A stretch of 56,799 nucleotides of DNA from Candidatus Iainarchaeum sp. (GTDB taxonomy: Archaea; B1Sed10-29; WALL01), in assembly GCA_021162685.1 (NCBI GenBank), contig JAGGYF010000027.1, positions 1-56,799 of the forward strand, given 5' to 3'. The translations under genes were made by a program, and so were the position numbers. This document shows positions 5,334 to 38,858 of the stretch, in pieces. The notes under the pieces are model-generated. The model was not told where the DNA came from, did not search any database, and was given only the letters and a program-made list of their open reading frames with translations. Within the stretch, counting starts at the first letter, position 1; the number at the start of each line of letters is the position of its first letter.

Positions 5334-5373
5334 AACGAAAATATTATTAATAAGAATCTGTTAACCTAGCAAC

Positions 5374-6159: not shown

Positions 6160-6194
6160 TAATCCTTTTAAATCCTTGCTCCTTCTATTTTCTT

Positions 6195-6740: not shown

Positions 6741-6744
6741 ATTC

Positions 6745-8517: not shown

Positions 8518-8562
8518 CAATACTTTTATATACAACATGATTTTAACTAATGAGTGATAGAG

Positions 8563-13000: not shown

Positions 13001-14567
13001 CTGTTACTTGGTGTGCCTTGGCTACCTTTTCAATTGTTGCTGCCAGAAGAGGGTCAGATTTATACACCTTTTCTATGTATGCTTTGTATTGACTTGGACT
13101 CAGATTGTCTATTACTTCTCCAGTCTCCCTCCATATGACCTCACCATTCGCAGTTATTACGGGCCTATACACTGGCACGTTGTCATATTTATCAATCATC
13201 TTCATCCCTGTTTTCATCTCTTCCCACAGTGATTTTGCTTCATCTACTTCCCCTTTCTTAATCAGTTCTGCTATCTCCTTAAATCTGTCCTTAACTGCTG
13301 GTTTCAATGATTCGAAATTTTCGCTTTCCTTCACAAGTGCTTCTCTTCTGGTAACAAGTTTTTTGATATTCTCTGGTACTTTATCGCTTTTGGCCCAATT
13401 TATAGCTTCATCAATACTTACCTGATCTTTTGTTTTTTCTACTGCTGTCGCGTACCTATCTAATAGCGTATCATCTACATACTTTATCTCATCATCAAGT
13501 ATCTTTGAAAGTTCGTCCATATTGTCGGCATAACCGCTGAATTTGCCCGATGTGCTGCTGAGGTATGCTCTCGCTTTTACCAAATCTGATTTTTTGTTTG
13601 ATGTTGTCAAGGTTATTTTGGCTTTCTCAGCTCCATCCCAGACATCATCAATATCATCAGTCATCGTGCTGAGCCTTTCCATCCGTGCAGACCTTGTGAG
13701 CATGTCTCCTTCTGTTTTTCCACCAAACAGCTGTTTGAACTTTCGTAGCAGGCCGCCTTTCTTCACAGACCCTTCATATGCGCCAGCATTTTTGAATACA
13801 GAACCAAGGCCAACAATTGCTATAACCATGTCTGCCATGTCCAGTTTTTTCATCGCTGCTGTGTACATGGTCAATGCCTGTGGTAATATGAATATTGTTG
13901 TACCTGGTCCCCCAGTGGCCATGCTTGTTGTAAACTCTGTTCCCCTTACTCTGCTCTGGCTGAGGTCCATTAAATCACTTGGTAGCAGTTCCTCCTCTGG
14001 CGACAATGAGACGAACGTGCTTATGATATCTGCTTTTGTTTTTGCGCTCCTCAGGCTGTCAATGTACTCCTTTGTTTTGTCCACATCGCCATTGCGCACG
14101 CACACGTTTTTATCAGATGCATTGACAGGGGATTGACCACATATCGCGAGATTCTCTCTCAGATGGCCACCATATTCTATCCTTCCATCTATATTTGTTC
14201 CTATAAGCCAGCCATTATCCTTTTGTAGTCTATCCCCTAGCACCTTATAGTAGAAGACAGGACCATCTGCACCCATAAAATAGAAGTTATAATCATCTGC
14301 AATCTGTTGTTGTTTTGTCTTTTTTTCAATACCAAGCTTTTCTAGTGCTTGCTGTTGCCTGTAATGCTCGGCACTTGTCGCAACATCTTGGGTTACAATA
14401 CCCTGTATTGCTGTTGCCTGATAATAGTTAAGTTCAGTGACATTTAGTGCATTACTTATGTCACAGAAATTATCTTGGTCTTGGGTTTCCTGGGCCATAA
14501 CCCCAAATGGCCAGAAAATGCTCATAAATAGGATAATACTGAAAACGAAGGCCACATATTTTTGCAT
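10041..14567 (-). CDS. Giant membrane-anchored surface protein (1,508 aa), no recognised family
   Basis: The likely start MQKYVAFVFSIILFMSIFWPFGVMAQE is a signal peptide; the track start at 14615 adds 16 aa. A K/E-rich helical region covers roughly aa 330-560. There are three internal hydrophobic clusters. The C-terminal third is beta-rich, followed by a Pro-rich stalk (PPALPTRPESG) and a terminal TM (IELVVYLVALITGLFVVRMIKE). Confidence 0.8.
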   Translation of the reverse strand: MQKYVAFVFSIILFMSIFWPFGVMAQETQDQDNFCDISNALNVTELNYYQATAIQGIVTQDVATSAEHYRQQQALEKLGIEKKTKQQQIADDYNFYFMGADGPVFYYKVLGDRLQKDNGWLIGTNIDGRIEYGGHLRENLAICGQSPVNASDKNVCVRNGDVDKTKEYIDSLRSAKTKADIISTFVSLSPEEELLPSDLMDLSQSRVRGTEFTTSMATGGPGTTIFILPQALTMYTAAMKKLDMADMVIAIVGLGSVFKNAGAYEGSVKKGGLLRKFKQLFGGKTEGDMLTRSARMERLSTMTDDIDDVWDGAEKAKITLTTSNKKSDLVKARAYLSSTSGKFSGYADNMDELSKILDDEIKYVDDTLLDRYATAVEKTKDQVSIDEAINWAKSDKVPENIKKLVTRREALVKESENFESLKPAVKDRFKEIAELIKKGEVDEAKSLWEEMKTGMKMIDKYDNVPVYRPVITANGEVIWRETGEVIDNLSPSQYKAYIEKVYKSDPLLAATIEKVAKAHQVTGAIDDITELAGKSTKYASLQAARDAKNALSFSRLVEKQGGILKTLFKPSSTLRVKRAVAEGTATFSLRVFNTLIRTIYTGIGTKAIAIARALHYVNDYFLRKGYFEVTGSGLTLHYSKEDTGIFKDDSVIVIMATNSIVRGITKSYLGGELGTMFMDMVGQVNKNLVPLQQKANALGDVLVFGGVMYPPRSGVIIVEKEKPRGMTKIDEEETSHGRYYILRIRNWENHQFTAIEDPRTMAERSEGEEKKMLTAMGMWTYDIDLYAHLYGDKTQLSGVFTVLDPFVWKIGSWGLFSKLFIASSAFHMFLTPTSILPASKSLAIMGMPLGMYATSKYGMLAGKEFMTSELTDMDKLAKCIEAEKKSLENETSEYCAGGRPSCYNKLTECMQGESLGSAGLAGATMSQYVLAAGGPAGAAVMLGSLALSVYKMQLRKECLNDLATCQEQAFTIIGVGQYSSPEVLAAEQQTETLKGLPGLEELPVKDFLEASGLQNVSIGEITQQQLNIHTEMENASGRMAFDEIYYAHISDATIQWIESNLPIDLCNLDENGNPVDKECVEMLGNDLRYGGKTIVSDELVPFKWMDTELPAIIIPNTAVTVDTGAAGSCTLVGVDNTGERVKINPSVVSKFESLGFQELERMFGKMRVIETKQGAIYPTVDYDGNYRLEMDNIDGNFLFSTEGAEVLSNGKVRFNNNLYDFESAVFTGGTIVKRGNLIYVLPKYFMPVMSGKRWLEATGGAPFVSDTGEPLEVYDAKGNLLGLDAKVTRIPGGEKLGIITRVDAEKDLNGDGEISDDEKAGWRFYRDPETNKSKFELFYKGKKEIYDADQVEIDEKTGDIKVYEKGKPHVEANLLRTIETKVDSLGRTLLTIKDGKGNTLLEEALVTYLKGSGGAIKYDKANNNYVFVNGQPVEVNNNFKTNGFNPITGRTEPPLLQPTAIDKPEKAFGEEKEIAPPALPTRPESGIELVVYLVALITGLFVVRMIKE

Positions 14568-14624
14568 AGGAATCCCTGCCCTGTAACAATTACACATTAA
14601 AGTATATATAAACATATTGCAGAA

Positions 14625-15083
14625 TTAAAGCACTGGTGGTGCCTCAACAATCCTGAACACAAATATGAGGAGCGCCCAGAATGCCAGGCTTCCTATTAGT
14701 GACATGAGATATTGCATGAGATGCCATGGTAGCATGGGATAACTATCCATGAGTTTGTGATATGCCTGTGACAGAGGGAAGACAAATATAGCAAAGGCAT
14801 ATGTTGCTGGCTCAAAGAACATTGTTAGATATTGCATCTTTATGGAGTGGTAGTACCATAGCTCAAACACAAGGAAGAGGAATGCGAATAACTGGACAAG
14901 GATAAATTGAAGAAAATAGAGAGGAGCCTTAATCTTCTTTATGACCAATGAACTCAATACAGTAGCAATGAATACAGGGATTGAGAACAAGAAGGAGATA
15001 ATGAGCCAGGTCTGACTTATTCCATACTTCGCTACCATCTGGTTCAATATAATCATTAACTCTACTATCATGTTCTCAGCCAT
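14625..15083 (-). CDS. Small membrane protein (152 aa, about 4 TM)
   Basis: Four hydrophobic segments. 8-nt overlap with the upstream PAC2 gene. The giant-protein ORF begins 10 nt downstream at its longest start (14615), or 58 nt downstream at the preferred ATG 14567. Confidence 0.6.
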   Translation of the reverse strand: MAENMIVELMIILNQMVAKYGISQTWLIISFLFSIPVFIATVLSSLVIKKIKAPLYFLQFILVQLFAFLFLVFELWYYHSIKMQYLTMFFEPATYAFAIFVFPLSQAYHKLMDSYPMLPWHLMQYLMSLIGSLAFWALLIFVFRIVEAPPVL

Positions 15084-15819
15084 ACATTGGGGAATGTTCC
15101 TCAGCTGCCTTATACTTCATCCTACCGACCTTCATCTGTTCCATCATCTTCTTCATCTTTGTCTCTATCTGTCTTGCCTCTTCCATTAATGCTTCTGTTT
15201 TTATGCTCACTCCTGTTATGTCCTCAACCTTTTCAAGCAGTTCTGCTGCTGCCCCTGGATCTGGATAACCGTGTGTTGTTTCTATGAGCAGGCTCATCGC
15301 AGGAACATTTTCAATAGCACATTTTGCCATCAATATACCTGAGACACCAGTTGTTACACCTTCAGTTATAATCTTTACACTGTGCTCTCCAAGTATCTTT
15401 TCCATCTCATCATTGCTTGCAATGCCATATATCTGGGGCTTTTCTTGGAATCCCATAGATGTCATGCCAGCAAGTGATATGATCATCTTTATCTTCTTCT
15501 GTTTCACCCATTCTATGATGGATTCAGCAATATCATAAACAGTTTCAGCAGGCACTACAAATTCAGAGAAGAGCATGACCATTTTGTTCTTTTTGTCAAC
15601 ATAGATGCGTGCAGGAAACACGGGCTTTCCCTTATGGATTGATGCCATAGGCGGGAACTTCTTTGATATAATGTACCCTATACATTCTGCACCCTGTTTT
15701 TCTGCAAGATAACCAACTGCGATTGTTCCAACAAGGCCAATACCTGGGAAACCTTCAACAAGGGTATATCCTGTCAGGTCCATATCCTTTGTGATTTTTA
15801 TCTCTACACTGCTGACCAT
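15076..15819 (-). CDS. PAC2 (proteasome assembly chaperone 2-like, COG1938) family protein
   Basis: The N-terminal LVEGFPGIGLVGTIAVGYLAEK motif and the 247-aa size are typical of archaeal PAC2-family proteins. Confidence 0.7.
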   Translation of the reverse strand: MVSSVEIKITKDMDLTGYTLVEGFPGIGLVGTIAVGYLAEKQGAECIGYIISKKFPPMASIHKGKPVFPARIYVDKKNKMVMLFSEFVVPAETVYDIAESIIEWVKQKKIKMIISLAGMTSMGFQEKPQIYGIASNDEMEKILGEHSVKIITEGVTTGVSGILMAKCAIENVPAMSLLIETTHGYPDPGAAAELLEKVEDITGVSIKTEALMEEARQIETKMKKMMEQMKVGRMKYKAAEEHSPMYG

Positions 15820-15860: not shown

Positions 15861-16742
15861 TTACATGAGGCCACTAAAAAATAGGAAGATAGCAATGCCC
15901 AATGGAACAAGAATAGAAGCATATACCAAAGCCTTCTCCACCTCTCCTTCCTGGTATGCAACAAAGACAGAAGCAATAATGCTGTACTCAACAATGTATA
16001 TCTGGTTTCCCAGTATGGCATTCTTTATGATGGCTTTTTTTAGTGAGGGAGATATCCCCATGCCGAGTTCTGCCAACCCAGCAAAGTCCATAGACGAAAC
16101 CATAGATACTACAATGCCCAATACAGCAGGGACTATAATCCCTCCTGCAAGGAGCATAGTCCATCGCTCTATCAGTGCGCTGGCTTTTCTCTCACGTATG
16201 ATGGCAGCAGTTCCCCTTATCTCCTCAGCAACCTCTCTAAGTGTTTTTTCTATGTGTGAACCAACCCTATAACTCTGCATTACTACATCTATTGCTCTTG
16301 ATAGTGATCTGTTCTTGCATCTGTCCCCCATGTCTGAAAGTGCTTCCTCAACACTCATGCCATTTTTTATTTGGTTGCTGGCTTCTCTGAACTCTTTTCC
16401 AAGTACTGTTTTATGCTTTCCAATACTCTCAATAATTGTTTCAAGTGGAAGAAAGGAACTCATAGATGCCATCTCCATTAGGACATCTGGAAGTTCATCG
16501 TCTATTGCCCTGTTCATTCGTGCCCTCTTATATGACGCAATAGCAAAGGCAACTGCAAATGGCATTGTGAGCGATGAGAAAGAGGCAATGAACATCATAG
16601 TGCCGTTCAGTAAGGCTATTGAGAGGATAAAAGAGATGATACTTATCATAGCAATCTTTTTTACATCACTGCGCGAGTACCCAACAGAGCGCATTATCTC
16701 CTCAAGTTTCATATGCATGCAGGCCTCCTCATTCTTATCCAT
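15861..16742 (-). CDS. Type II secretion system F (TadC/ArlJ-half-like) platform protein, single domain
   Basis: ELPDVLMEMA...GMSVEEALSDM...RAIDVVMQSY..G..IEKTLREVAEEI followed by TM helices. This is one T2SSF repeat. Confidence 0.75.
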   Translation of the reverse strand: MDKNEEACMHMKLEEIMRSVGYSRSDVKKIAMISIISFILSIALLNGTMMFIASFSSLTMPFAVAFAIASYKRARMNRAIDDELPDVLMEMASMSSFLPLETIIESIGKHKTVLGKEFREASNQIKNGMSVEEALSDMGDRCKNRSLSRAIDVVMQSYRVGSHIEKTLREVAEEIRGTAAIIRERKASALIERWTMLLAGGIIVPAVLGIVVSMVSSMDFAGLAELGMGISPSLKKAIIKNAILGNQIYIVEYSIIASVFVAYQEGEVEKALVYASILVPLGIAIFLFFSGLM

Positions 16743-17602
16743 GCCATTATGATTATATCAACTAATGGGAATCCGATAACAGGAATCAAAAGCGCCTGTG
16801 TTGGACTTATCCCTATATCCATAAAGTTAGAACCAACAATGATAAGGGCCTGAAAGAGCGCTGGTAAAAGAACAGAGACAGCTATGAATACCAATGAATA
16901 CATGACAAGTTTTCCACCGAACTCTTTTGCATCTGCATTTTGTTTTCTTACAAGGTCATTTGCAAGGCTTTCAAGGGATTGCGCTGCTTGTTCATCCCCT
17001 CCCTTTTCATAGCACATTTTTAGATGCGTGACTGCCCTCCCCACAATTTTTGAGTCAATGCGGTGCGCAAAATCATCTAATGCATCTTGAACAGGGACAC
17101 CATTTTTTATCTCGTAAACTACTTCTATTATTTCATCAGATAGTTTTCCATACCCCTTACTTACGCTTTCAAGACATATCTCAAATGGAAGATTCATTGA
17201 TAGCTGAGTAGCAACAGTTCTTAGTGCAATGGGCAACTCTTTTTCAATAGCCCCTGTCAATGCATTTTTTCTTATGAATGGATAATAGAAGATAAAAGAT
17301 GAGATAGCAATGGTTATAACAAGTGTAATGAAGAGTATGTTATCGCTATTTGTTGTGATTATGGATAGAGGGGCCAGAAACAGTGGAAACAGGAGGAGTG
17401 ATGCATAAACTATGCTCATCCACTCCTCACCAGTTAATTCCATGCGTGAGAAATACAATGCAGTATCCAACACTCTCAATAGCTTTTCTGGTGTCTTTTT
17501 TGATAGTGGGCTGAATACATGATGTATTACTTTAATCGTGTTTATCACCAAAGTTAAATGAGTATATTTGTTTGACAACATCGCTGAATGAGCCTTCAAC
17601 AC
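16709..17602 (-). CDS. Type II secretion system F (TadB/ArlJ-half-like) platform protein, single domain
   Basis: ELPIALRTVATQLSMNLPFEICL...NGVPVQDALDDFA...RAVTHLKMCYEKGGD...LESLANDL followed by TM helices. The start is uncertain because the longest ORF overlaps the ATPase gene by 71 nt. Confidence 0.75.
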   Translation of the reverse strand: MLKAHSAMLSNKYTHLTLVINTIKVIHHVFSPLSKKTPEKLLRVLDTALYFSRMELTGEEWMSIVYASLLLFPLFLAPLSIITTNSDNILFITLVITIAISSFIFYYPFIRKNALTGAIEKELPIALRTVATQLSMNLPFEICLESVSKGYGKLSDEIIEVVYEIKNGVPVQDALDDFAHRIDSKIVGRAVTHLKMCYEKGGDEQAAQSLESLANDLVRKQNADAKEFGGKLVMYSLVFIAVSVLLPALFQALIIVGSNFMDIGISPTQALLIPVIGFPLVDIIIMAWIRMRRPACI

Positions 17603-19223
17603 TATTCAGGAAATCACTCCTTCTTTTAAGCTCATTATCCAGCGAGTCAATACCAAGGTAGTTTGCAATCCTTTCCTCTATGTCTGCTTTCCTAGCTTTT
17701 GTAAGGCAATCTCTCTTGTAGTCATAGACAAAAATGGGCATGACATCTATGCTTCTATCCCTTACAACAACTTCACTTATTTCTGTTATCCTTCTCATCT
17801 CAATGTGTTTCTTCGCATCTCTGTCATACCTGTCCCATCTTCTCTGAACAACTATAAGGTCAATGGCTCCAAGGTCATCCTTTTGTATGCCTAGGTTTGC
17901 CAGCCTCACAAGTACCTCTTTTGCGTTCTTCGCGTGGAATGTTGCAATAGATCCCTTTCCTTGCCCAGCTAACATAGTGTTGATTAGTGCAACTGCTTCC
18001 TCTTTCGTTCTAACTTCGCCTACAATTAACCTATCTGGCCTCATTCTTAATGTGTCAGATACAAGTACGTTCATCCCTATTCCAATATTCTTGTTTACAA
18101 CAAGACGGATGTTATGCTTATGTGGTATGTTTATCTCTGGTGTTTCTTCTACGATGATTATGCGTTCATCAAGTGGGATGAATGCTGCTAATACATTAAG
18201 TGTTGTTGTCTTTCCAGAGCCAGTGCTCCCAGCAATTATAATATTCAGGCTGCACTGCATTGCACTCCATAGAAATGCGAGGGCATCTGCACTGATTGTT
18301 CCATTCTTGATAAGCTCTGGAGGTGTGAATGGGTTTTTTCTGAACTTCCTAATAGTAAGTACTGGCTCTTTGACAACTGGGGGTATGGCAGCATGTAGGC
18401 GTGAACCGTCTCTTAAAGAAGCATTCAATCGTGGATTTTGCATTGTTATCCTTCTGCCGAGCTGTCTTGCTATCTTATTTATTATTGTGATAAGTTTCTT
18501 GCTGTTTGTAAACATGATATCGGCGTTCATCCATCCTTCGTTTCTCTTGAATACAACTATGGGTTTGTTTATTCCAATAATAGCTATTTCCTCTAATGTG
18601 TCATCATGGACGAGTTGTTCAAGTATTGAGAAACCCCTTGTCTCCATTTCAGCAATTTTTGTTATCTCTCTCCTCTGTCTTTCATCAAGAATGATCCCTT
18701 TCTCCGTGCAGTATTCATCTATGATTTCGTTTATATCTGCAACATCTGTTTTTGCGAACTCGCCAAACACTTTTATTATGTTGTCTATAAGCTTAGCCTC
18801 ATCATAACTTAGCCTATACGTGTCTGTTTTGTATGTACCTTCACACACCTTCCATCCTAAGATACGTTCTATTTCCATCTCTTCATCAGTGGAATGCTCC
18901 AATGACATGTATGGGCATACCTTCATGCACTTTGGGTCACCCATGCATAAGTCGCATTTTCTGGCGTATCCATCTATTTCTATTGCGTCCCATGGGCATA
19001 CCTCTGCGCATAGGCCACAGGCATTACATTTTTCTGGGTTGACACTCCATACGCCTTGTATTGCCTCAAAAAATGCATCATTTGGACAAGCTGCCACGCA
19101 TGGTGCATCCTTACAATGCTTGCAGTTTAATATCTTGAGTGATACTGCCTTTTCACACACCTCAATACATGCATTGCAATGTTTACAATTGTCTACATGA
19201 AGGTACATCTTCCCTCTCCCCAT
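17532..19223 (-). CDS. ArlI/VirB11/TadA-type secretion ATPase fused to an N-terminal 16-Cys poly-[4Fe-4S] ferredoxin module (563 aa)
   Basis: The N-terminal ~110 aa hold four motifs: CKHCNACIEVC, CKHCKDAPCVAACP, CNACGLCAEVCP and CDLCMGDPKCMKVCP. The C-terminal part has Walker A GSTGSGKTT and Walker B/Asp box RPDRLIVGEVR. Confidence 0.85.
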   Translation of the reverse strand: MGRGKMYLHVDNCKHCNACIEVCEKAVSLKILNCKHCKDAPCVAACPNDAFFEAIQGVWSVNPEKCNACGLCAEVCPWDAIEIDGYARKCDLCMGDPKCMKVCPYMSLEHSTDEEMEIERILGWKVCEGTYKTDTYRLSYDEAKLIDNIIKVFGEFAKTDVADINEIIDEYCTEKGIILDERQRREITKIAEMETRGFSILEQLVHDDTLEEIAIIGINKPIVVFKRNEGWMNADIMFTNSKKLITIINKIARQLGRRITMQNPRLNASLRDGSRLHAAIPPVVKEPVLTIRKFRKNPFTPPELIKNGTISADALAFLWSAMQCSLNIIIAGSTGSGKTTTLNVLAAFIPLDERIIIVEETPEINIPHKHNIRLVVNKNIGIGMNVLVSDTLRMRPDRLIVGEVRTKEEAVALINTMLAGQGKGSIATFHAKNAKEVLVRLANLGIQKDDLGAIDLIVVQRRWDRYDRDAKKHIEMRRITEISEVVVRDRSIDVMPIFVYDYKRDCLTKARKADIEERIANYLGIDSLDNELKRRSDFLNSVEGSFSDVVKQIYSFNFGDKHD

Positions 19224-19263: not shown

Positions 19264-19533
19264 ATGGGTGCGCAGATACTATTTGGAGGAAAGTTAGGCA
19301 TAACAGGTGAGGCAGCCGAACTATTGAAAAATTCAGCAGAAATGCTCAGAATCTACAAGATGGATGATGAGATTCTTATAAAACATGCAAAAAGCACAAA
19401 TATCTACCCAGGGGACAGGTCTGTTAAGATAGGCAATTCTATACTATTTGTGCAGAAAGAGGTGCTTGAGACACCTATTGAGCTCTGTGTTGAGGAGGGA
19501 AAACTTGTTATAAAAAAGACATATTCATTTTGA
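19264..19533 (+). CDS. Small hypothetical protein (89 aa) with an internal two-fold repeat
   Basis: KLGITGEAAELL...DDEILIK and KIGNSILFVQKEVL...EGKLVIKK look like two similar halves. No family recognised. Confidence 0.4.
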   Translation: MGAQILFGGKLGITGEAAELLKNSAEMLRIYKMDDEILIKHAKSTNIYPGDRSVKIGNSILFVQKEVLETPIELCVEEGKLVIKKTYSF

Positions 19534-19857
19534 AAATCGTATAGAGTCACCTATTTTTATCCCTCTTGCCTTTCCTGCTTTCATCTCAATAACAAATCTG
19601 CACGGCTTCTTTGGAGTTATATTAAGCGTCCATGGTTTGACATTTCTTGCGATGTCCACAACCCTGTGCTTTTCATCAAGAAATAGGATATCTATAGGAA
19701 ACCTCATAAACATGGTATGTATTGATGCACCGATTCTTGTTTTTCTGTTTAGTACAAAGATTAATGCTCCATCAAAATCTTTCCTGAGCATCAATCCCTT
19801 GAATTTCTGCCAGGGAGTATGCGCGAACTCAATACTCATCTTCAGTTTTTTTCTCAT
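19525..19857 (-). CDS. DUF192-family protein
   Basis: AHTPWQKFKGLMLR...MFMRFPIDILFLD...KPW matches the DUF192/COG1430 pattern. Confidence 0.7.
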   Translation of the reverse strand: MRKKLKMSIEFAHTPWQKFKGLMLRKDFDGALIFVLNRKTRIGASIHTMFMRFPIDILFLDEKHRVVDIARNVKPWTLNITPKKPCRFVIEMKAGKARGIKIGDSIRFSK

Positions 19858-19865
19858 ATTAACAC

Positions 19866-22265
19866 CTATGGACTTGTTCCAGGCACCTTCTTTATTGTTA
19901 TGGCAGTTATCTGTGGAATGTTTCCACCATATGCATCTGTGAATACTATCCTGTCCAAAATCTTACTGCTATTTACATCTATGTAACCCATAAACAATTT
20001 TCCAGTACCTAGAGAACCATCACAGGATGATGCAAATGTTTCTACTTCTCCAGTTCCTGTCTGCCAGTCTTTATAATCAAACAAAAACCGGTCGTAAGAG
20101 TTGTCTGTGTAGTAAATGTAGATATAAGGAACAACATTTTCTGTAGCATTTTCTTGGTCTGTGTTTCCATAATAATCATATGCTGTTACCATGCATGTCC
20201 ATGACTCAGAAGTATTTGTTTCATTTACAGTTATTGTTGTATAGCAGGTTGTTCCATTTGTGCATGATATCCCAGTTACATCCCAAGTTGTTCTTTGTGA
20301 GCCATCACCAAACCAAGTAACATTAGCCCTTAATGTATCACCTGGGTCTATGTCCGTTATGACCCAGGAGCAATTCAATTCATCATATATGCTTGGATTG
20401 TCTGGGAAAACATCTATACTTGTTATGATTGGAGCGTGCGTTTCCTTGTAATCCCCATATATCTCCTCAACAATTGGTGTGTCTGTTCCACTTCCATTGA
20501 GATACAGCTTAATGCTGAAGTTTCCTGAAACATCATTAAATGTTCCAGATGTTAAGTCATCATCCGTAATCGTCTTTTTTCCATAGGCGTATATCTTTTT
20601 TATCTCGTCCTCGCTTAATGCCCTGTCAAAAATCACAAAGTCGTCAATTGTCCCGTTAAAATAGTATTGTGCATACTCCGTTCTCCTTCCTATTGTTACT
20701 GCTTTTGTGTCATATGTTGGATTAAATGTTGTTGGGGTCCTGTGCGCCTCCTCGCCGTTGATGTAAATAATCCTGTTGCTGTGGTCATAGGTATATGCGA
20801 TGTGATACCATGTGTCCTTGTGGAATGTTGTTGAGAAGACAACCGCATTTTGCGATGAACCATCACCCAACCTATACGAAAGCTGCCCGTAGCTTGAACC
20901 CTTGTGGTATGAGATGTGGTATCCGTTCGTTGAGCCGCCCATCTTATCCACAATAAAAAACCATTGGTTTGTGCCAGATTTGTCAAGTTCTATTGCTGGT
21001 TTCATCCAGAAAGCAATGGTAAAGTTTTGTAATCTTAGTGATGTGCTGTCTTGCATGTAAATCCTATCATTAGAGCCGTCAAAGTAGTATGCATTTCCGA
21101 ACATACCTGTTGTTTGCGTTGCTCCGTCAACCGTCCCATTGTTCAATCCTTTCTCGTCATTTGCATTGCCTTCAAATCTCCAATAACTTACAAGGTTTGC
21201 ATCACCATACAAATCGTGTGATAAAAATTCTATTGGGGTAACAGAGGTTATATCCTCGTCATATGTTGCCTTAACCTCCCCGTCAACAAGCCACTCAATC
21301 TTGTCTATGTAGTTGTTGCTATCCACAATGCCCTCTATTACCGTGTTTTCCAAAACCTTTTCAGATGGCATTGATATATCAGCACTTTCCCAGCTCCCAG
21401 AAGATTTATACCTTTTCCCCTGGTTGTAAAGCTCCTGTATTTCTGCCTGGCTTAACTCCCTCCTGTATATCTTAATCTCATCTATTGTTCCGTTAAAGTA
21501 CTGGGTTGAGCTTCCCCTGTACCTTCCAATTTCAGGGTTTTTCCCTGTGTTTTTCATTCCTGTATATGTTCCAGAAGTGTAGCTTGTTGAGCCATCTACG
21601 TTTGTGCCGTTGAAGTATATGTGCATTCCTGTTTTGCTTTTGCTTCCATCATAGGTTACTGCAATCATCGTCCACTCATTGTTGGCAGGATAGCCATCTG
21701 AATATCTCCCTATCCTGTTCGAAGTGCTGTCCGAGTACAACCCAAAACCCAAGCAGCTGTACTTTTTTGCGTCCCATACAAGCCACTCAAAATTGCTGTT
21801 TGGAACATCATATATCCCGATTAATCCTCCACCTGTGTTTGACCAATCAGAGCTGTTTGCCCAGAAAACAACTGTAAAGGGGATGTCGTTCCCATCCGTG
21901 CCGTCCGTAAACGTGTACTCGTCCTTGTCTGGGATGCTTATGTAGTCATCAGAGCCGTCAAATAGGAATGCTCTATCAAGCCATCCGTCAATTGATGTTG
22001 CACCGTACACCGTACCATCGCCCAGTCCTGTCTCATCGTTTGCGTTGTCCTCAAATCTCCAATAACTTGTTAGGTTTGTGTCCTTTTCAGCATACGGGAA
22101 ATCCAGCTCAATAGTTCCCTCGTCTTGTTCGTACCTGTCTGTTGATGTTGTCACGTTTACCTTTGTCCCAGCGTCAAAATCTGTTGTTGTTGTGATGTTA
22201 AAATCTGCTGCAAAAGCAACAGCTATCAAGATCATAACCCATACCATAATTTTTAATCTCATCAT
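19866..22265 (-). CDS. Secreted double LamG/concanavalin-A-like lectin-domain protein with Ig-like C-terminal region (799 aa)
   Basis: Signal peptide MMRLKIMVWVMILIAVAFA. Two repeats of YWRFE(D/G)NANDE.GL..GTV.GAT...FDGS(D/N)D...FNGTID(E/D)..I(Y/F).R.LS..EI..(L/I)Y at aa 64-281 and 357-561. Many N-x-S/T sequons. Confidence 0.85.
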   Translation of the reverse strand: MMRLKIMVWVMILIAVAFAADFNITTTTDFDAGTKVNVTTSTDRYEQDEGTIELDFPYAEKDTNLTSYWRFEDNANDETGLGDGTVYGATSIDGWLDRAFLFDGSDDYISIPDKDEYTFTDGTDGNDIPFTVVFWANSSDWSNTGGGLIGIYDVPNSNFEWLVWDAKKYSCLGFGLYSDSTSNRIGRYSDGYPANNEWTMIAVTYDGSKSKTGMHIYFNGTNVDGSTSYTSGTYTGMKNTGKNPEIGRYRGSSTQYFNGTIDEIKIYRRELSQAEIQELYNQGKRYKSSGSWESADISMPSEKVLENTVIEGIVDSNNYIDKIEWLVDGEVKATYDEDITSVTPIEFLSHDLYGDANLVSYWRFEGNANDEKGLNNGTVDGATQTTGMFGNAYYFDGSNDRIYMQDSTSLRLQNFTIAFWMKPAIELDKSGTNQWFFIVDKMGGSTNGYHISYHKGSSYGQLSYRLGDGSSQNAVVFSTTFHKDTWYHIAYTYDHSNRIIYINGEEAHRTPTTFNPTYDTKAVTIGRRTEYAQYYFNGTIDDFVIFDRALSEDEIKKIYAYGKKTITDDDLTSGTFNDVSGNFSIKLYLNGSGTDTPIVEEIYGDYKETHAPIITSIDVFPDNPSIYDELNCSWVITDIDPGDTLRANVTWFGDGSQRTTWDVTGISCTNGTTCYTTITVNETNTSESWTCMVTAYDYYGNTDQENATENVVPYIYIYYTDNSYDRFLFDYKDWQTGTGEVETFASSCDGSLGTGKLFMGYIDVNSSKILDRIVFTDAYGGNIPQITAITIKKVPGTSP

Positions 22266-23479
22266 GTCTCACCCATTGATGATATGAAGTATATTCTTTC
22301 AGCATATACATGTGGTGTTTTTACAGTTTCAGCATTTGTTATGTTTAGGTTTGTGTTTCCAGATGTGCTGACATAGAATGGTATCCCATTATAGGTCTGC
22401 GAGCTTTCTGAGTACCATCCAGTATATCCACAGTTTTCTCCGAATACATCTGTGTGGAAAATATTGAAGGATATGTAGTTCTCTGATAATGCTACATAGT
22501 CTTGGTATGGTTCACTAAGCACAGTAATATCTTTTGTAGTTTCTGCATAGTATCTATGCTCAACAGCAGTAAGGGTCATATTTCCAGTTATTTCGTTGGT
22601 ATCAATTGTAAAGTTCCCCCCAAAAGTACCAGATGATGTATCTCCTTGTGAGCCATAGCTAGTGGCTCTCCCAATAGCATTTGTAACATCAAGATTAACA
22701 ATAGTATCAAATGATGTTCCGTTTGAATATCTCAAAAATACCTTGTACCTTACCATCTCTCCTCTAACAAACATGTCCTGTGGAAACCAGTTGCTATCAT
22801 ATGTTTTGATAGTGATGTTCACGCTATATACACGTAAATTTTTTTTTAGTGTGCCATTGAGTTTTATACTCCATGTTCCTTGCGTGTCTGTTGATGCTAT
22901 GCTGAACGAACCATCAGCATGCCAGTTACTCAATGTCTCATTTTTTGTGTATTTCAGATTTCCGTTGGGGTCATATACACTTATGTTTACAAGGTCTGTG
23001 TCGTTTCCTGTTATTCTGTAATATACCGTGCTTCCCAGTGGAAATGCATCATTCTCATAGGCCAAGAGGTTATCCTCATAGGTGGACACCGCATAAGGCA
23101 CAGTATAATCGTAGCTCATTGTCTTTTCTATAGTGGTGTCTGTGGAGTTTATACGTAGTGTACAATTCACATGGAATTGATTCCCACTTTGGCTTTCATC
23201 ACATGTTATATTTGAGGCGTATCCCAGTGAGTTTAAAGTTGTGTTCATATCCTGTATCACATTGGTTATAGCATTACTATCTCCATCATATATCTTGCTC
23301 TCTAATGCCCAGCTGAGTTCGTTTGCATATTGCTCTGCTATATTGTGCGCTAATGGGCTCTCCATGACTTTTAGCTCAGTTTGTTTTGCTTGGCTTGTGT
23401 AATATGCTATCCCAACCACTATTGTAATCATCAAAACTGCTGTTATGAGGAAGAACTGCCCCTTCTTATTCAATACCAT
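22262..23479 (-). CDS. Large pilin-like protein (405 aa) with class-III signal peptide
   Basis: MVLNKKGQFFLITAVLMITIVVGIAYY. The body is beta-rich and sequon-rich. ATGA overlap with the LamG gene. Confidence 0.7.
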   Translation of the reverse strand: MVLNKKGQFFLITAVLMITIVVGIAYYTSQAKQTELKVMESPLAHNIAEQYANELSWALESKIYDGDSNAITNVIQDMNTTLNSLGYASNITCDESQSGNQFHVNCTLRINSTDTTIEKTMSYDYTVPYAVSTYEDNLLAYENDAFPLGSTVYYRITGNDTDLVNISVYDPNGNLKYTKNETLSNWHADGSFSIASTDTQGTWSIKLNGTLKKNLRVYSVNITIKTYDSNWFPQDMFVRGEMVRYKVFLRYSNGTSFDTIVNLDVTNAIGRATSYGSQGDTSSGTFGGNFTIDTNEITGNMTLTAVEHRYYAETTKDITVLSEPYQDYVALSENYISFNIFHTDVFGENCGYTGWYSESSQTYNGIPFYVSTSGNTNLNITNAETVKTPHVYAERIYFISSMGET

Positions 23480-23883
23480 ACCTGCACCAATACCCTTTTG
23501 GTTGTTTTATTTCCTCTGATGATACATCCTGCTGTTGCAATATCTGTTGTTGATGCCTGTGAATATCCTGTAGAATCCAAAACCTGTAATGTTGTCACAT
23601 TGAGAATAGCAATCCTATACTTCAGGTCATACGGCACAGCATAGTTTATGGAGTTATTTATGGGCGTTAATGATGCACCATAAATGATTAATTGTCTATC
23701 CCTCCAGCTATTGCATACCATGTCCTTTATGTCTTTTGCATATCTTGATAGTACAAGGGTATTTTTCTCTGTTGCTGGAATTGGAGGAGTGGTCTTTATA
23801 AGCGTTATCAAGAGCATGAACATAAGCGTTATAGTGATAAGCACTTCAAGCGTCCTTATGAATCCCCTGTCTATGCTGCCCAT
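23470..23883 (-). CDS. Pilin-like protein (137 aa)
   Basis: The internal ATG at 23883 gives MGSIDRGFIRTLEVLITITLMFMLLITL (R-G-F plus a helix). The track start at 23982 would overlap the upstream gene by 112 nt. Confidence 0.55.
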   Translation of the reverse strand: MGSIDRGFIRTLEVLITITLMFMLLITLIKTTPPIPATEKNTLVLSRYAKDIKDMVCNSWRDRQLIIYGASLTPINNSINYAVPYDLKYRIAILNVTTLQVLDSTGYSQASTTDIATAGCIIRGNKTTKRVLVQVWY

Positions 23884-25555: not shown

Positions 25556-25556
25556 A

Positions 25557-26444: not shown

Positions 26445-26447
26445 ACC

Positions 26448-28385
26448 TCATAATTTTTTCAATACCTCATCCGGCGTGGAGTAATACTGTTGGATAATCC
26501 TCCCCACATCAACAAAATATCTTATGTCGTTTTCCCTCATCCATCTAAGTATCTGCGTTCTTCTCTGCAACTCCTCCCACACACTCTTTTCCTCAATTCC
26601 CTTTGTTTCTATGATATCCTGCAAAACATATGACCTATCGGATACAAACTCAAATGAGTCAGTTGCTGGGTCCCATCTAAACAATGTGTTGATTATTGGT
26701 TCATGTTCTTTTGTCAGACCAAGCACTTCCACAAGTTCTTTTACTCTTCTGACTTCTACCCCTTTTATCCTGGCCTTAGTCAATATGAGTATAATATCTA
26801 GATGTTGCAATAGACCAGGGGAGAGATTTATTGGAGGAGTCTGCAACCTGTTCATAACAGCATCAACTGAATCTGCGTGTATTGTTGCTAATCCTGTATG
26901 TCCTGTTGCCATTCCTTGGAATAGAACATATGCCTCCTTACCTCTCACCTCTCCTACTATCAAACAGTCTGGCCTTTCTCTTAATGCTGCTCTCAGTAGG
27001 TCATACATTGTGATCTCGCCCATTTTTACTCCAGTTATATCTGCTCTTCCAAATCCTGGCCTCACAACCTTCTGTACCCAATGCTCGTGTGGCAATCTTA
27101 TCTCGGGCGTATCTTCTATACTCACTATCTTCGCATCTCCTGGAATAAACATAGAGAGCGCATTCAACATGGATGTTTTTCCTGTTGCTGTTCCTCCAGA
27201 AACAAGTATGCTCTTCTTGTATTCCAGTGCAAGCCAAAGGTATGCAGCCATCATCTCTGGAAGTGTACCAAAATTGAGTAAATCAATAATTGTTAATGGG
27301 TCTCTTGTAAACTTTCTTATTGTGAATGTGCTACCACGCATTGCAATGTCTTTATGTGATGAATATGTTGCCTGAACACGTGAACCATCTGGTAATGCTC
27401 CGTCCAACAACGGCTCAGCAACAGAGATATGCTTTCCGCACTTCTGCGCTAATCTGATGACAAACCTATTCAACTCATCTTCATCTTCAAACATAATATT
27501 TGTGGGTATTGATGCATACTTTCTATGATAGATGTAAATAGGTATGTTTATACCATCACATGAGATATCCTCAATACTTGGATCATGCATAAGTGGTTCT
27601 ATCCTCTCCAAACCTAAGAAATCCCTGTACATGTAGTAAAGTATCTTCTGGTACTCATCCTCTGTCATCTTTATTCCATAGTCTGAAATAACCCTATCAA
27701 CCTTTTCTTTAAGCACTTTCTTTATAGATGCACTCTCCTTGATCTCAAATAGGTTTACATCAAGCAGGTCAACAACAAGTTCTTTTATGAGCTCTAGATT
27801 TCTTCTCTGCTCTTCTGTTAGGAATGGTTCCAAAACAAAGTATTCAAGCCTATTCTTATCTGGATTCCAACTAAGATTTGCAAATGCAAACGGCTCTATT
27901 AATGGATACCTGAGATTAATCTTTTGTAATTCTGGTGGTCTCCACTCTACAGACATCTTTTTTAGGTATTGCCTTGGGATCTTATGTGCTTTCAGAGGAA
28001 TATTCTTTATCCCCCATATGTCAATACCTTTTTCTGTTCTTTTCTCAGCTCTTGTTTCTGTCTGTGATGGCAATTCAGTTGATATCTTTGAGAAATCAAT
28101 AACTGTCGGGAGTTTTTCCTTCTTTTTCTTCTCTACTGTTTCTACGTTTCCGAGGGCAAATGATTTTTTGACCTTTTCAATCCTTTTCAAATCCTCCTCA
28201 GGGCCCTTTTCCAGGTATTTATCAAGTTCCTCAAGTGCTTTCCCTATATCCCTTATCTCTAATGATTTCTTTGGTTCTTCAATCTGCTCCTTTTTTTCAA
28301 CCTTTTTCTCTACCTTTTTCTTCTTTGCAAGCTTTTCAGCCGCCTTTTTTAGTAGGATTCTAGGTAATGGCATATCCATCAACAT
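26448..28385 (-). CDS. Archaeal type IV filament assembly ATPase (ArlI/PilB/TadA family, 645 aa)
   Basis: Walker A GGTATGKTS, RERPDCLIVGEVRGKEA and His box ATGHTGLATIHADS. The N-terminal leader is K/E-rich. Confidence 0.9.
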   Translation of the reverse strand: MLMDMPLPRILLKKAAEKLAKKKKVEKKVEKKEQIEEPKKSLEIRDIGKALEELDKYLEKGPEEDLKRIEKVKKSFALGNVETVEKKKKEKLPTVIDFSKISTELPSQTETRAEKRTEKGIDIWGIKNIPLKAHKIPRQYLKKMSVEWRPPELQKINLRYPLIEPFAFANLSWNPDKNRLEYFVLEPFLTEEQRRNLELIKELVVDLLDVNLFEIKESASIKKVLKEKVDRVISDYGIKMTEDEYQKILYYMYRDFLGLERIEPLMHDPSIEDISCDGINIPIYIYHRKYASIPTNIMFEDEDELNRFVIRLAQKCGKHISVAEPLLDGALPDGSRVQATYSSHKDIAMRGSTFTIRKFTRDPLTIIDLLNFGTLPEMMAAYLWLALEYKKSILVSGGTATGKTSMLNALSMFIPGDAKIVSIEDTPEIRLPHEHWVQKVVRPGFGRADITGVKMGEITMYDLLRAALRERPDCLIVGEVRGKEAYVLFQGMATGHTGLATIHADSVDAVMNRLQTPPINLSPGLLQHLDIILILTKARIKGVEVRRVKELVEVLGLTKEHEPIINTLFRWDPATDSFEFVSDRSYVLQDIIETKGIEEKSVWEELQRRTQILRWMRENDIRYFVDVGRIIQQYYSTPDEVLKKL

Positions 28386-38849: not shown

Positions 38850-38858
38850 GGTATTAAA

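What the first reader, a model, noticed from the sequence alone, without database searches (positions are those of the whole stretch)
18894..19208. Sixteen-cysteine poly-[4Fe-4S] module fused to the N-terminus of a type IV filament ATPase
The first ~110 aa of the 563-aa ATPase contain four complete ferredoxin-type motifs: C-x2-C-x2-C-x3-C, C-x2-C-x4-C-x3-CP, C-x2-C-x2-C-x3-CP and C-x2-C-x5-C-x3-CP. This arrangement resembles DmsB/NrfC-type multi-cluster electron-transfer subunits. It replaces the usual N-terminal domain of ArlI/PilB/TadA ATPases. The paralogous ATPase at 26448-28385 has a K/E-rich leader here instead. The fusion suggests redox or O2 sensing, or electron-input control, of filament or secretion activity.
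Basis: partly seen in the sequence, partly recalled or inferred. Interest (0 to 1): 0.7.

Follow-up and report, generated by a model that had tools for sequence, protein, structure and literature searches.

The report
Four-cluster ferredoxin fused to pilus ATPase
A small symbiotic-type (DPANN) archaeon has a pilus/secretion motor ATPase carrying an extra, strongly conserved N-terminal module predicted to hold four iron-sulfur clusters, an unreported design that probably ties surface-filament activity to the cell's redox state.

Summary
Chance does not explain this: shuffles give 0.26 such motifs per whole window.

The module is translated and under selection. All 16 Cys are kept in 81 of 96 module-bearing homologues at 40-56% identity. 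Its predicted fold matches four-[4Fe-4S] electron-transfer subunits (WOR5-B, AorA, PsrB, HycB, FdnH).

One claim is wrong. The module does not replace the ATPase N-terminal domain. It is added in front of a complete FlaI/GspE/CpaF-like NTD+CTD, and unfused relatives start at the 'LGW' junction.

The fusion is common in DPANN archaea (source names: Micrarchaeota, Diapherotrites/Iainarchaeum). It was lost repeatedly and also occurs on a second ATPase clade. It sits in a conserved operon: DUF192, Fer-ATPase, two TadB/C-like platform genes, PAC2.

I found no paper describing it. Function is inferred only. A redox/O2-responsive input domain is most likely. An ABCE1-like structural module and a true electron conduit are the rivals. 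Verdict: a new variant of a known kind, moderately high interest.

The parts
17532..19223 (-). Whole gene: Fer-fused T2SSE-family ATPase. It is 563 aa from the first ATG, and probably 558 aa from M6 at 19208.
   Evidence: ORF list. Pfam Fer4 plus T2SSE. AF2 mean pLDDT 94.4. A 100%-identical 558-aa database protein, P0001.
18894..19208 (-). N-terminal module, residues 6-110, with 16 Cys. Predicted to bind 4 x [4Fe-4S] in a DmsB/PsrB/WOR5-B-type fold (two nested ferredoxin halves).
   Evidence: Translation. AF2 of the module alone, pLDDT 91. Foldseek against PDB. phmmer against PDB. All 16 Cys kept in 81 of 96 homologues.
19155..19187 (-). Cys group I, C13-x2-C16-x2-C19-x3-C23.
   Evidence: Invariant in 76 fused homologues except one V at C16.
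19083..19124 (-). Cys group II, C34-x2-C37-x4-C42-x3-C46-P.
   Evidence: Some homologues use C-x-C-x4-C-x3-CP instead and still have four Cys.
18993..19028 (-). Cys group III, C66-x2-C69-x2-C72-x3-C76-P.
   Evidence: Invariant. This is the best Pfam Fer4 hit, residues 61-82.
18912..18956 (-). Cys group IV, C90-x2-C93-x5-C99-x3-C103-P.
   Evidence: Invariant apart from single exceptions.
18846..18893 (-). Junction: acidic linker helix (residues 112-122) and the conserved LGW motif (G123, W124), where unfused relatives begin.
   Evidence: Translation. G123 is invariant and W124 is at least 90% conserved in 92 sequences. Unfused relatives start with 'MLGWK'.
17535..18845 (-). Complete motor ATPase, NTD plus CTD, residues 127-563.
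   Evidence: Foldseek hits: afGspE 2oap, FlaI 4ii7 and CpaF 8rjf, E 1e-31 to 3.5e-35, 435-505 aligned columns. phmmer against PDB.
18207..18230 (-). Walker A motif, GSTGSGKT, residues 332-339.
   Evidence: Translation. G332, T334, G337, K338 and T339 are invariant in 92 sequences.
16709..17602 (-). First TadB/C-like platform protein (T2SSF). It overlaps the end of the ATPase gene; its true start is uncertain.
   Evidence: Pfam T2SSF. Conserved in all related loci.
15861..16742 (-). Second TadB/C-like platform protein (T2SSF).
   Evidence: Pfam T2SSF. Conserved in all related loci.
15076..15819 (-). PAC2 (proteasome-assembly-chaperone family) gene after the platform genes. Found in 6 of 7 fused loci and 0 of 3 unfused loci.
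   Evidence: Pfam PAC2 E 6e-49. TIGR00161 190 bits, cut-off 199. Synteny.
19525..19857 (-). DUF192 gene upstream. It is conserved directly upstream of this ATPase clade in both fused and unfused loci.
   Evidence: Pfam DUF192. tblastn hits in L001, L002, L083, L087, L088, L089, L090 and L091.
26448..28385 (-). Paralogous FlaI-like ATPase of the neighbouring pilin-bearing locus. It has a K/E-rich leader and no Cys module. Included for comparison.
   Evidence: Pfam T2SSE only. 418 bits to the FlaI model. Sequence.

Best explanation
The gene encodes a Tad/Epd-like archaeal type-IV-filament ATPase of a DPANN archaeon. In front of a complete NTD+CTD motor it carries a compact ~105-aa ferredoxin module. 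The module binds four [4Fe-4S] clusters arranged as a short electron wire with a DmsB/PsrB/WOR5-B fold.

I think the module is most likely an accessory redox-input domain. The cluster chain would equilibrate with the cell's low-potential ferredoxin pool, or be oxidised or destroyed by O2. Its redox or occupancy state would then control hexamer activity, or docking of the ATPase on its two TadB/C-like platform proteins. Filament assembly or secretion, and hence host or surface attachment, would run only in a reduced, energised cell.

Shown here:
- the motifs and their conservation
- the predicted fold
- that the module is an addition, not a replacement
- an intact ATPase catalytic core
- repeated gain and loss of the module
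- operon context

Inferred, not shown:
- that the clusters are actually bound
- that their state gates the motor
For: 1. The module is real, translated and selected.
- All 16 Cys are kept in 81 of 96 module-bearing homologues.
- Non-Cys positions are 33% identical on average, more than the adjacent NTD segment at 27%.

2. It has the four-cluster fold.
- AF2 pLDDT is 91-94.
- Best Foldseek matches are four-[4Fe-4S] subunits: WOR5-B, the 9mqx_E subunit, AorA, PsrB, HycB and FdnH.
- Pfam dicluster models span groups II+III.

3. Natural 'mutagenesis' supports the ligand assignment.
- Two separate lineages (P0065/76/107 and P0080/81) lost exactly I1, I2, I3 and IV4 while keeping I4.
- That is one entire cluster under the nested ferredoxin ligation scheme.

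4. The module looks accessory rather than core.
- It is added before a complete motor.
- Unfused forms are scattered in at least 4 places of the clade's tree, implying repeated loss.
- The same kind of module sits on a second ATPase clade closer to the FlaI-like paralogue.
- N-terminal extensions of these ATPases are known regulatory or docking inputs, for example the c-di-GMP-binding ATPases of PMC4624772 (title and abstract seen) and the subsystem-specific N-terminal domains in 10.64898/2026.04.22.720090.

5. The ATPase is catalytically intact. Walker A, the Asp/Glu boxes and the His box are invariant.

6. A ferredoxin pool exists. The window encodes a 2-oxoacid:ferredoxin oxidoreductase pair at 34397-36849.
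Against: - There is no experimental or computational evidence that cluster state affects ATPase activity.
- From general knowledge, classical Fe-S sensors (FNR, SoxR, IscR, NsrR, WhiB) use one cluster. Four clusters in a wire are typical of electron conduits.
- The two lineages that lost a cluster lost, by the FdnH numbering (from memory), a terminal cluster. That leaves a contiguous three-cluster chain, a pattern that fits a conduit as well as a sensor.
- I could not inspect coordinates or PAE of the model, so contact between the module and the ATPase body is unverified.
Confidence: 0.4

Rival explanations
1. Structural or docking module, ABCE1-like. The four clusters are redox-inert scaffolds that give a rigid, compact domain. 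The domain positions the ATPase on its split platform (two TadB/C-like proteins), or recruits PAC2 or DUF192. It would act as a lever or adaptor, not a sensor.
For: - The full-length AF2 model keeps the linker helix 112-122 at pLDDT ~89-91. In the isolated module the same helix drops to ~73, suggesting it packs on the ATPase.
- Fusion status co-varies with machine architecture. Fused loci have two separate T2SSF genes plus PAC2. Unfused loci have one fused 580-aa T2SSF and no PAC2.
- Subsystem-specific N-terminal domains of archaeal TFF ATPases are proposed interaction surfaces (10.64898/2026.04.22.720090).
- From general knowledge, ABCE1/Rli1 is an ATPase with an N-terminal 2x[4Fe-4S] domain that has a mechanical role.
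Against: - A 16-Cys, O2-labile, biosynthetically expensive module is an odd choice for pure scaffolding in genome-reduced organisms.
- Repeated loss shows the machine works without it.
- The co-variation rests on only 10 loci from related genomes.
Confidence: 0.25
2. Genuine electron-transfer conduit. The module passes electrons between a cytoplasmic donor (ferredoxin, or a flavin-reductase-like protein) and an acceptor associated with the machine. Transfer may be coupled to ATP hydrolysis. In the hexamer this would give 24 clusters.
For: - Every close structural relative is a dedicated electron wire: WOR5-B, AorA, PsrB, HycB, FdnH.
- The same kind of N-terminal four-cluster domain is fused to other enzymes. 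The query matches the N-terminal parts of the AegA, YgfT and PadI models; that it serves as their electron entry is from memory.
- Lineages with 12 Cys lost one whole cluster and kept the other three intact.
- A Flavin_Reduct gene lies within a few kb in 5 of 7 fused loci.
- A ferredoxin-reducing oxidoreductase is encoded in the window.
Against: - No redox-active acceptor is found in the operon: no haem, molybdopterin or NrfD-type partner, and no flavin domain.
- No known role for electrons in type-IV-filament assembly.
- Repeated loss in close relatives.
- The Flavin_Reduct linkage may be plain synteny among related genomes, since deoxyhypusine synthase and a ~1500-aa protein are also co-conserved.
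Confidence: 0.2
3. The Cys-rich region is not part of the functional protein (internal start near M116), or it binds zinc or nothing. In that case it would be an annotation or evolutionary remnant.
For: - An in-frame Met (M116) lies just before the LGW junction where unfused relatives start.
- Bacterial GspE/PilB ATPases bind Zn through a tetracysteine motif (PMC5061722, abstract seen).
Against: - In-frame conservation of all 16 Cys and of non-Cys residues across homologues from 28% to 56% identity.
- Canonical CxxCxxCxxxCP spacing and a ferredoxin fold.
- Correlated loss of exactly one cluster's four ligands.
- The remaining 4 Cys of the protein form no CxxC pair.
Confidence: 0.03

Closest known systems
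Archaeal and bacterial type-IV-filament/secretion ATPases: afGspE (PDB 2oap), FlaI/ArlI (4ii7), CpaF/TadA (8rjf)
   Same: - Full NTD+CTD fold, Foldseek E 1e-31 to 3.5e-35.
- Walker A and B, Asp box and His box are present.
- It is followed by platform (T2SSF) genes.
- One ATPase plus two platform genes matches 'System 1' (Epd/Tad-like), reported in methanogens, Thermococcales and DPANN (10.64898/2026.04.22.720090).
   Different: - None of these carries an Fe-S domain.
[quoted passage not shown]
- Scores to the ArlI and TadA NCBIfam models are far below cut-off.
- There are no pilin genes in its own operon.
Four-[4Fe-4S] ferredoxin-like electron-transfer subunits: WOR5 small subunit (6x1o_B), AorA (8c0z_C), PsrB (2vpw_B), HycB (7qv7, 7z0s_B), FdnH (1kqf_B), DmsB/NrfC
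   Same: - Four Cys groups with the same spacing pattern.
- Predicted fold TMq 0.65-0.72.
- HMM similarity.
   Different: - The module is much more compact: ~105 aa against 150-290 aa.
- It is not a separate subunit of a pterin, hydrogenase or NrfD complex; it is covalently fused to a P-loop motor ATPase.
- Pfam Fer4_11 scores 25.3 against a cut-off of 26.2.
- DmsB and NrfC equivalog scores are far below cut-off.
ABCE1/Rli1 (general knowledge, not tested here)
   Same: An ATPase with an N-terminal ferredoxin-like poly-cluster domain whose clusters are essential but not used for catalysis.
   Different: - ABCE1 has 2 clusters (8 Cys) on an ABC-type twin-NBD ATPase acting on ribosomes.
- Here there are 4 clusters on a hexameric RecA-like secretion ATPase.
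- No sequence hit to ABCE1 appeared among the top 60 PDB matches.
N-terminal regulatory domains of T2SSE ATPases, e.g. c-di-GMP-binding MshE/PilB (PMC4624772)
   Same: An N-terminal add-on to the same ATPase family that feeds a cellular signal into filament assembly.
   Different: The ligand there is a nucleotide second messenger bound by an unrelated helical domain. Here the add-on is an Fe-S module.
AegA / YgfT / PadI N-terminal four-cluster domains
   Same: The same kind of 16-Cys module fused to the N-terminus of a larger enzyme. NCBIfam aligns query residues 9-117 to AegA model positions 31-151.
   Different: The partners there are flavin/NAD(P)H oxidoreductases that use the electrons (from memory). 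Here the partner has no known redox chemistry.
AapX, the Fe-S protein of the Sulfolobales Aap pilus locus (10.64898/2026.04.22.720090)
   Same: An Fe-S protein genetically tied to an archaeal type IV pilus machine.
   Different: AapX is a separate protein of a different arCOG (arCOG07320) in Thermoproteota. It is not a ferredoxin module fused to the ATPase.

Membership tests
T2SSE / secretion-ATPase superfamily (Pfam PF00437) | Pfam gathering score reached | tested here: met
   136.2 bits against a cut-off of 24.9, residues 199-474.
T2SSE / secretion-ATPase superfamily (Pfam PF00437) | Walker A GxxGxGK[ST] and conserved acidic and His boxes | tested here: met
   GSTGSGKT at residues 332-339. 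G332, T334, G337, K338, T339, E359, E363, D397, E403 and H430 are invariant in 92 sequences.
T2SSE / secretion-ATPase superfamily (Pfam PF00437) | Bilobed NTD+CTD fold | tested here: met
   Foldseek hits to 2oap, 4ii7 and 8rjf: E 1e-31 to 3.5e-35, TMt 0.72-0.76, 435-505 columns.
T2SSE / secretion-ATPase superfamily (Pfam PF00437) | Hexameric assembly and ATP hydrolysis | not testable with these tools
   Needs biochemistry or cryo-EM.
ArlI/FlaI archaellum motor ATPase (NCBIfam NF058587) | Equivalog score cut-off | tested here: not met
   195.9 bits against a cut-off of 550.
ArlI/FlaI archaellum motor ATPase (NCBIfam NF058587) | Archaellin and ArlF/G/H/J genes in the locus | tested here: not met
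   The neighbours are DUF192, two T2SSF genes, PAC2 and a 1524-aa protein.
Tad/Epd-like 'System 1' archaeal TFF | One ATPase plus two platform-protein genes | tested here: met
   Two T2SSF genes directly downstream, conserved in 7 fused loci. Definition taken.
Tad/Epd-like 'System 1' archaeal TFF | TadA-type ATPase model (TIGR03819) cut-off | tested here: not met
   174 bits against a cut-off of 373.
Tad/Epd-like 'System 1' archaeal TFF | Own pilins with class III signal peptides, and a prepilin peptidase | tested here: inconclusive
   None in the Fer-ATPase operon itself. Class-III-like N-termini (KG|QLS..., KKG|SLN...) occur in the adjacent locus 22262-29448. No peptidase was identified in the window.
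Four-cluster ferredoxin subunits (Pfam Fer4_11 PF13247; DmsB/NrfC/PsrB type) | Four Cys groups, CxxCxxCxxxC(P) / CxxCxnCxxxCP | tested here: met
   Conserved in 81 of 96 homologues.
Four-cluster ferredoxin subunits (Pfam Fer4_11 PF13247; DmsB/NrfC/PsrB type) | Pfam Fer4_11 gathering score | tested here: not met
   25.3 bits against a cut-off of 26.2 for the window protein. Many homologues have PF13247 among their precomputed hits.
Four-cluster ferredoxin subunits (Pfam Fer4_11 PF13247; DmsB/NrfC/PsrB type) | Fold with two nested ferredoxin halves | tested here: met
   Foldseek TMq 0.65-0.72 to 6x1o_B, 9mqx_E, 8c0z_C, 2vpw_B and 7qv7. This rests on a predicted model, not a solved structure.
Four-cluster ferredoxin subunits (Pfam Fer4_11 PF13247; DmsB/NrfC/PsrB type) | DmsB or NrfC orthology (TIGR02951 / TIGR03149 cut-offs) | tested here: not met
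   39 bits against 214, and 35 bits against 378.
Four-cluster ferredoxin subunits (Pfam Fer4_11 PF13247; DmsB/NrfC/PsrB type) | Partner catalytic (pterin or hydrogenase) subunit or NrfD-type anchor in the locus | tested here: not met
   None in the window operon or in 7 related loci.
Four-cluster ferredoxin subunits (Pfam Fer4_11 PF13247; DmsB/NrfC/PsrB type) | Actual binding of four [4Fe-4S] clusters | not testable with these tools
   Needs anaerobic purification, Fe/S analysis, UV-vis and EPR.

The most novel reading that the evidence does not exclude
The motor hexamer carries a ring of 24 [4Fe-4S] clusters that is a working electron pathway. One version is ATP-hydrolysis-coupled low-potential electron transfer, analogous in principle to the nitrogenase Fe protein or to the ATP-dependent activators of 2-hydroxyacyl-CoA dehydratase and benzoyl-CoA reductase. 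The other is a route that delivers electrons to or from the filament/platform machine. In that case a DPANN symbiont's type-IV-filament apparatus would take part in redox exchange with its host or surroundings.
Probability: 0.08. Interest if true: 0.95.

Novelty: new variant of a known kind. Interest (0 to 1): 0.62.

Why it matters
Type-IV-filament ATPases drive pili, archaella and secretion in nearly all prokaryotes. Their known inputs are protein partners and nucleotides such as c-di-GMP. I know of no described member that carries a redox cofactor.

A conserved four-cluster Fe-S module on the motor would be the first direct link between cellular redox or oxygen status and filament assembly. 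The organisms are DPANN archaea, whose lifestyle depends on attaching to hosts through such surface machines (PMC5498576).

The family gives a clean experimental handle. Natural fused, unfused and three-cluster variants already exist.

It also corrects a recent general statement that archaeal TFF ATPases show no fusion events.

Tried and rejected
1. The search for related loci on genome contigs with the full alignment. The back-translated patterns were generic Walker and 'LRMRPDR' motifs. The 80 loci returned were mostly bacterial CpaF-like genes at 30-41% identity, with no close fused relative.

2. Rfam scan of the window: no hits.

3. Bacterial-type promoter and terminator scan around the gene. 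Counts equalled the shuffled expectation, and the scan does not apply to archaea.

4. Apparent stand-alone copies of module plus junction (P0141, P0148, P0152).
- P0148 sits on a 710-bp contig.
- A fragment or frameshift cannot be told apart from a real split gene, so I drew no conclusion.
- True stand-alone 16-Cys ferredoxins of 128-155 aa do exist (P0159, P0170, P0173).

5. The opposite-strand 89-aa ORF between DUF192 and the ATPase (19264-19533). It has no Pfam hit and no homologue in related loci. I treat it as probably non-coding.

6. A remnant ferredoxin module upstream of an unfused relative (L083). Only AT-rich sequence full of stops was found.

7. Literature. Seven full-text searches and six papers opened found no description of the fusion.

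Inter-cluster distances and the module-ATPase interface could not be measured.
Full report
**1. The observation**

The finding's interval lies inside a minus-strand ORF, 17532..19223 (563 aa). Translating 18894-19208 on the minus strand gives residues 6-110. They carry exactly the four motifs quoted: C13xxC16xxC19xxxC23, C34xxC37x4C42xxxC46P, C66xxC69xxC72xxxC76P and C90xxC93x5C99xxxC103P.

The first 110 residues hold 16 Cys. The other 453 residues hold 4, and none of those is in a CxxC pair. A six-frame scan finds the four motifs in one frame within 273 nt. Fifty shuffles of the window give a mean of 0.26 such motifs in all six frames.

Pfam reports Fer4-type models over residues 33-105 and T2SSE over 199-474. 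The 645-aa paralogue at 26448-28385 (also minus strand) has a K/E-rich leader and only T2SSE.

The real start is probably M6 (19208):
- Homologues align from that Met.
- An identical database protein is 558 aa.
- GGAGAGGG precedes it.

Either start lies upstream of all the cysteines.

**2. Is the module part of the protein?**

Yes. A search of 5.8 billion proteins returned dozens of full-length relatives at 40-56% identity with the same Fer4+T2SSE architecture.
- In an alignment of 76 fused homologues, 15 of the 16 Cys are Cys in 75 or 76 sequences. C34 scores lower in that alignment (63 of 76). Part of this reflects alignment gaps and a subgroup that uses C-x-C there.
- Across all module-bearing hits, 81 of 96 have all 16 Cys.
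- Non-Cys positions of the module are 33% identical on average. That exceeds the neighbouring NTD segment (27%) and the C-terminal tail (30%).
- More distant fused members exist at 28-35% identity (P0137, P0139).

**3. What the module is**

AlphaFold2 with a 92-sequence alignment gives mean pLDDT 94.4 for the whole protein. The module alone gives 91.

Foldseek of the module against the PDB returns four-[4Fe-4S] small subunits as the best hits:

| Target | PDB chain | TMq |
|---|---|---|
| WOR5 small subunit | 6x1o_B | 0.72 |
| Subunit of a bifurcating tungsten aldehyde oxidoreductase | 9mqx_E | 0.69 |
| AorA | 8c0z_C | 0.69 |
| PsrB | 2vpw_B | 0.65 |
| HycB-type | 7qv7, 7z0s_B | 0.65-0.69 |
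| FdnH | 1kqf_B | 0.65 |

Sequence searches agree:
- Against solved structures, the best hits are MvhB polyferredoxin, FwdF, WOR5-B and PsrB.
- Against NCBIfam, the hits are the N-terminal four-cluster domains of AegA, YgfT and PadI, plus weak DmsB and NrfC hits.

Membership in those orthologous families is not. Fer4_11 scores 25.3 against a cut-off of 26.2, the DmsB and NrfC models are far below cut-off, and no pterin, hydrogenase or NrfD partner is in the locus.

A piece of evolutionary evidence supports the ligand scheme:
- Five sequences in two separate branches (P0065/76/107 and P0080/81) have 12 Cys.
- In both branches the missing ones are exactly I1, I2, I3 and IV4, while I4 is kept.
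- In the nested two-ferredoxin scheme, I1-3 plus IV4 ligate one cluster, and I4 belongs to the neighbouring cluster.
- These lineages therefore deleted one whole cluster and nothing else.
- By the FdnH numbering as I recall it (Jormakka et al. 2002; not checked here), that cluster is at one end of the wire. If so, a contiguous three-cluster chain remains.

**4. It is an addition, not a replacement**

- The rest of the protein aligns with full-length afGspE (505 columns), FlaI (~452) and CpaF (~436) at E 1e-31 to 3.5e-35 (sequence level).
- Unfused relatives of 453-463 aa begin 2-24 residues before the invariant G123/W124 ('MLGWK...').
- Upstream of one such gene there is only AT-rich sequence full of stops.
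- Walker A and the other catalytic boxes are invariant.

The claim that the module 'replaces the usual N-terminal domain' is therefore wrong.

**5. Distribution and history**

A profile of residues 1-216 was searched against 1.84 billion 50%-identity representatives. It gave 40 hits at E<=1e-30. About 30 of them are single-stretch matches across module plus NTD, that is, fusions.

Names attached by sources are Candidatus Micrarchaeota, Diapherotrites/Iainarchaeum and 'archaeon'. JGI's automatic names already read 'CpaF family ATPase/Fe-S-cluster-containing hydrogenase component 2'.

A rough NJ tree of the ATPase core shows fused forms as the majority state. Unfused forms sit in at least four places, implying repeated loss. 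This is a distance tree only, and some short N-termini may be gene-call artefacts.

A second set of fused ATPases (P0195-like, 726-803 aa, about 10 clusters) is closer to the window's FlaI-like paralogue than to the Fer-ATPase core (180 against 133 bits). It again has unfused sisters in Micrarchaeota and Burarchaeum. The module has thus been joined to TFF ATPases more than once, or moved between paralogues.

Stand-alone 16-Cys ferredoxins of 128-155 aa with the same motif pattern also exist.

**6. Context**

In the window and in loci L001, L002, L087 and L088, the gene order is:
- pilin-like genes
- FlaI-like ATPase
- two T2SSF genes
- pilin-like genes
- a large surface protein
- DUF192
- Fer-ATPase
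- two T2SSF genes
- PAC2, often followed by Flavin_Reduct

.

| Feature | Fused loci | Unfused loci |
|---|---|---|
| DUF192 directly upstream of the ATPase | 6 of 7 (absent in L086) | 3 of 3 |
| PAC2 after the platform genes | 6 of 7, including L091, whose surroundings are otherwise different | 0 of 3 |
| Platform | two separate T2SSF genes | one fused ~580-aa T2SSF in two of three; none adjacent in L090 |

The Fer-ATPase operon itself has no pilin gene.

One ATPase with two platform genes corresponds to 'System 1' (Epd/Tad-like), reported in DPANN. A cultured Micrarchaeon was likewise described with two T4P systems and linked LamG proteins (PMC5498576).

The window also encodes an IorA/IorB-like 2-oxoacid:ferredoxin oxidoreductase. 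The organism therefore runs ferredoxin-based chemistry.

**7. Mechanism**

What is shown is a conserved, dispensable, four-cluster-type module rigidly preceding an intact motor. Its actual function is inferred.

I rank the readings as follows:
- *Redox/O2-responsive input domain gating motor activity or platform docking (0.40).* It fits the accessory nature, the repeated gain and loss, the precedent of N-terminal regulatory inputs in this ATPase family, and the presence of a ferredoxin pool.
- *ABCE1-like structural or docking module (0.25).* It is favoured by the co-variation with split platform and PAC2, and by the well-ordered linker.
- *True electron conduit (0.20).* It is favoured because every structural relative is a wire and because cluster loss removed one complete cluster. 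It is weakened by the lack of any redox acceptor in the operon.
- *Not translated, or not Fe-S (0.03).*

That the module binds Fe-S at all I rate at about 0.9.

**8. Novelty**

Seven full-text searches and six opened papers did not mention the fusion. These included the 2016 census of archaeal T4P (PMC4858521) and a 2026 preprint on archaeal TFF diversity.

The preprint states that there is no evidence of fusion events for these ATPases. It notes only a separate Fe-S protein in the Aap pilus locus.

Automatic annotation pipelines already record the two-domain architecture, so this is not new to databases. As a described biological feature it appears to be new: a new variant of a known kind of machine.

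**9. Limits**

- There is no access to model coordinates or PAE, so no distances or interface could be measured.
- The genome-contig scan was uninformative, so taxonomy rests on source names.
- Synteny comparisons cover only ten loci from related genomes.
- Nothing here demonstrates cluster binding or regulation.

Noticed in passing
window 22262-29448 (-): A second, complete-looking type-IV-filament locus lies next to the Fer-ATPase operon. It has five proteins with class-III-signal-like N-termini (28819-29448, 28379-28825, 23871-24341, 23470-23982, 22262-23479; the last has an MG2 domain). It also has a FlaI-like ATPase with a ~150-aa K/E-rich leader and two T2SSF genes. The arrangement is syntenic in L002 and L087.
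   Followed up: partly
window 19525-19857 (-); L001, L002, L083, L087-L091: An uncharacterised DUF192 (COG1430) gene sits directly upstream of this ATPase clade in 9 of 10 loci examined, whether fused or unfused. It is probably an unrecognised component of this TFF system.
   Followed up: partly
window 15076-15819 (-); L001, L002, L087, L088, L091: A PAC2 (proteasome-assembly-chaperone family) gene follows the two platform genes, sometimes overlapping them. It is seen only with Fer-fused ATPases (6 of 7 fused loci, 0 of 3 unfused). In unfused loci the two platform genes are fused into one ~580-aa protein.
   Followed up: partly
window 10041-14615 (-) and 19866-22265 (-): Two large surface proteins flank the operon. 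One is a 1524-aa protein with no Pfam domain and TM segments at both ends; it has homologues at 39-57% identity next to the fused loci L001 and L088. The other is a 799-aa LamG-domain protein. LamG proteins linked to T4P loci were noted in the Micrarchaeon Mia14 (PMC5498576).
   Followed up: partly
window 8554-9114 (+): A Flavin_Reduct-family (FMN-binding split-barrel) gene. A homologous family member lies within a few kb downstream of the Fer-ATPase operon in L001, L002, L087 and L088. It could be a redox partner or simply conserved synteny.
   Followed up: partly
window 34397-36849 (-): A 2-oxoacid:ferredoxin oxidoreductase pair. The 623-aa protein has POR_N, TPP_C and a C-terminal 2x[4Fe-4S] domain (IorA-like). 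The 216-aa protein is a POR gamma/IorB-like subunit. This is evidence for ferredoxin-dependent anaerobic metabolism.
   Followed up: no
window 37437-40224 (+): A type II restriction-modification cassette: a BsaWI-like endonuclease flanked by two N6/N4 DNA methylases. It lies in the lowest-GC stretch of the window (0.35 against ~0.40), so it may have been acquired horizontally.
   Followed up: no
window 33058-34340 (-): An AbiEii-family nucleotidyltransferase toxin with an overlapping upstream 195-aa gene that has no Pfam hit. The upstream gene is likely the AbiEi-type antitoxin.
   Followed up: no
window 149-1000 (-) and 4629-8517 (+): A further protein with a class III signal peptide (Pfam PF04021). 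There is also a KaiC-like ATPase, followed by five tightly packed or overlapping ORFs with no Pfam hit.
   Followed up: no
window 19264-19533 (+): An 89-aa ORF on the opposite strand fills the 300-nt gap between DUF192 and the Fer-ATPase. It has no Pfam hit and no homologue in related loci, where the gap is mostly 0-60 nt. It is probably non-coding, which makes the gap a candidate promoter or regulatory region.
   Followed up: yes
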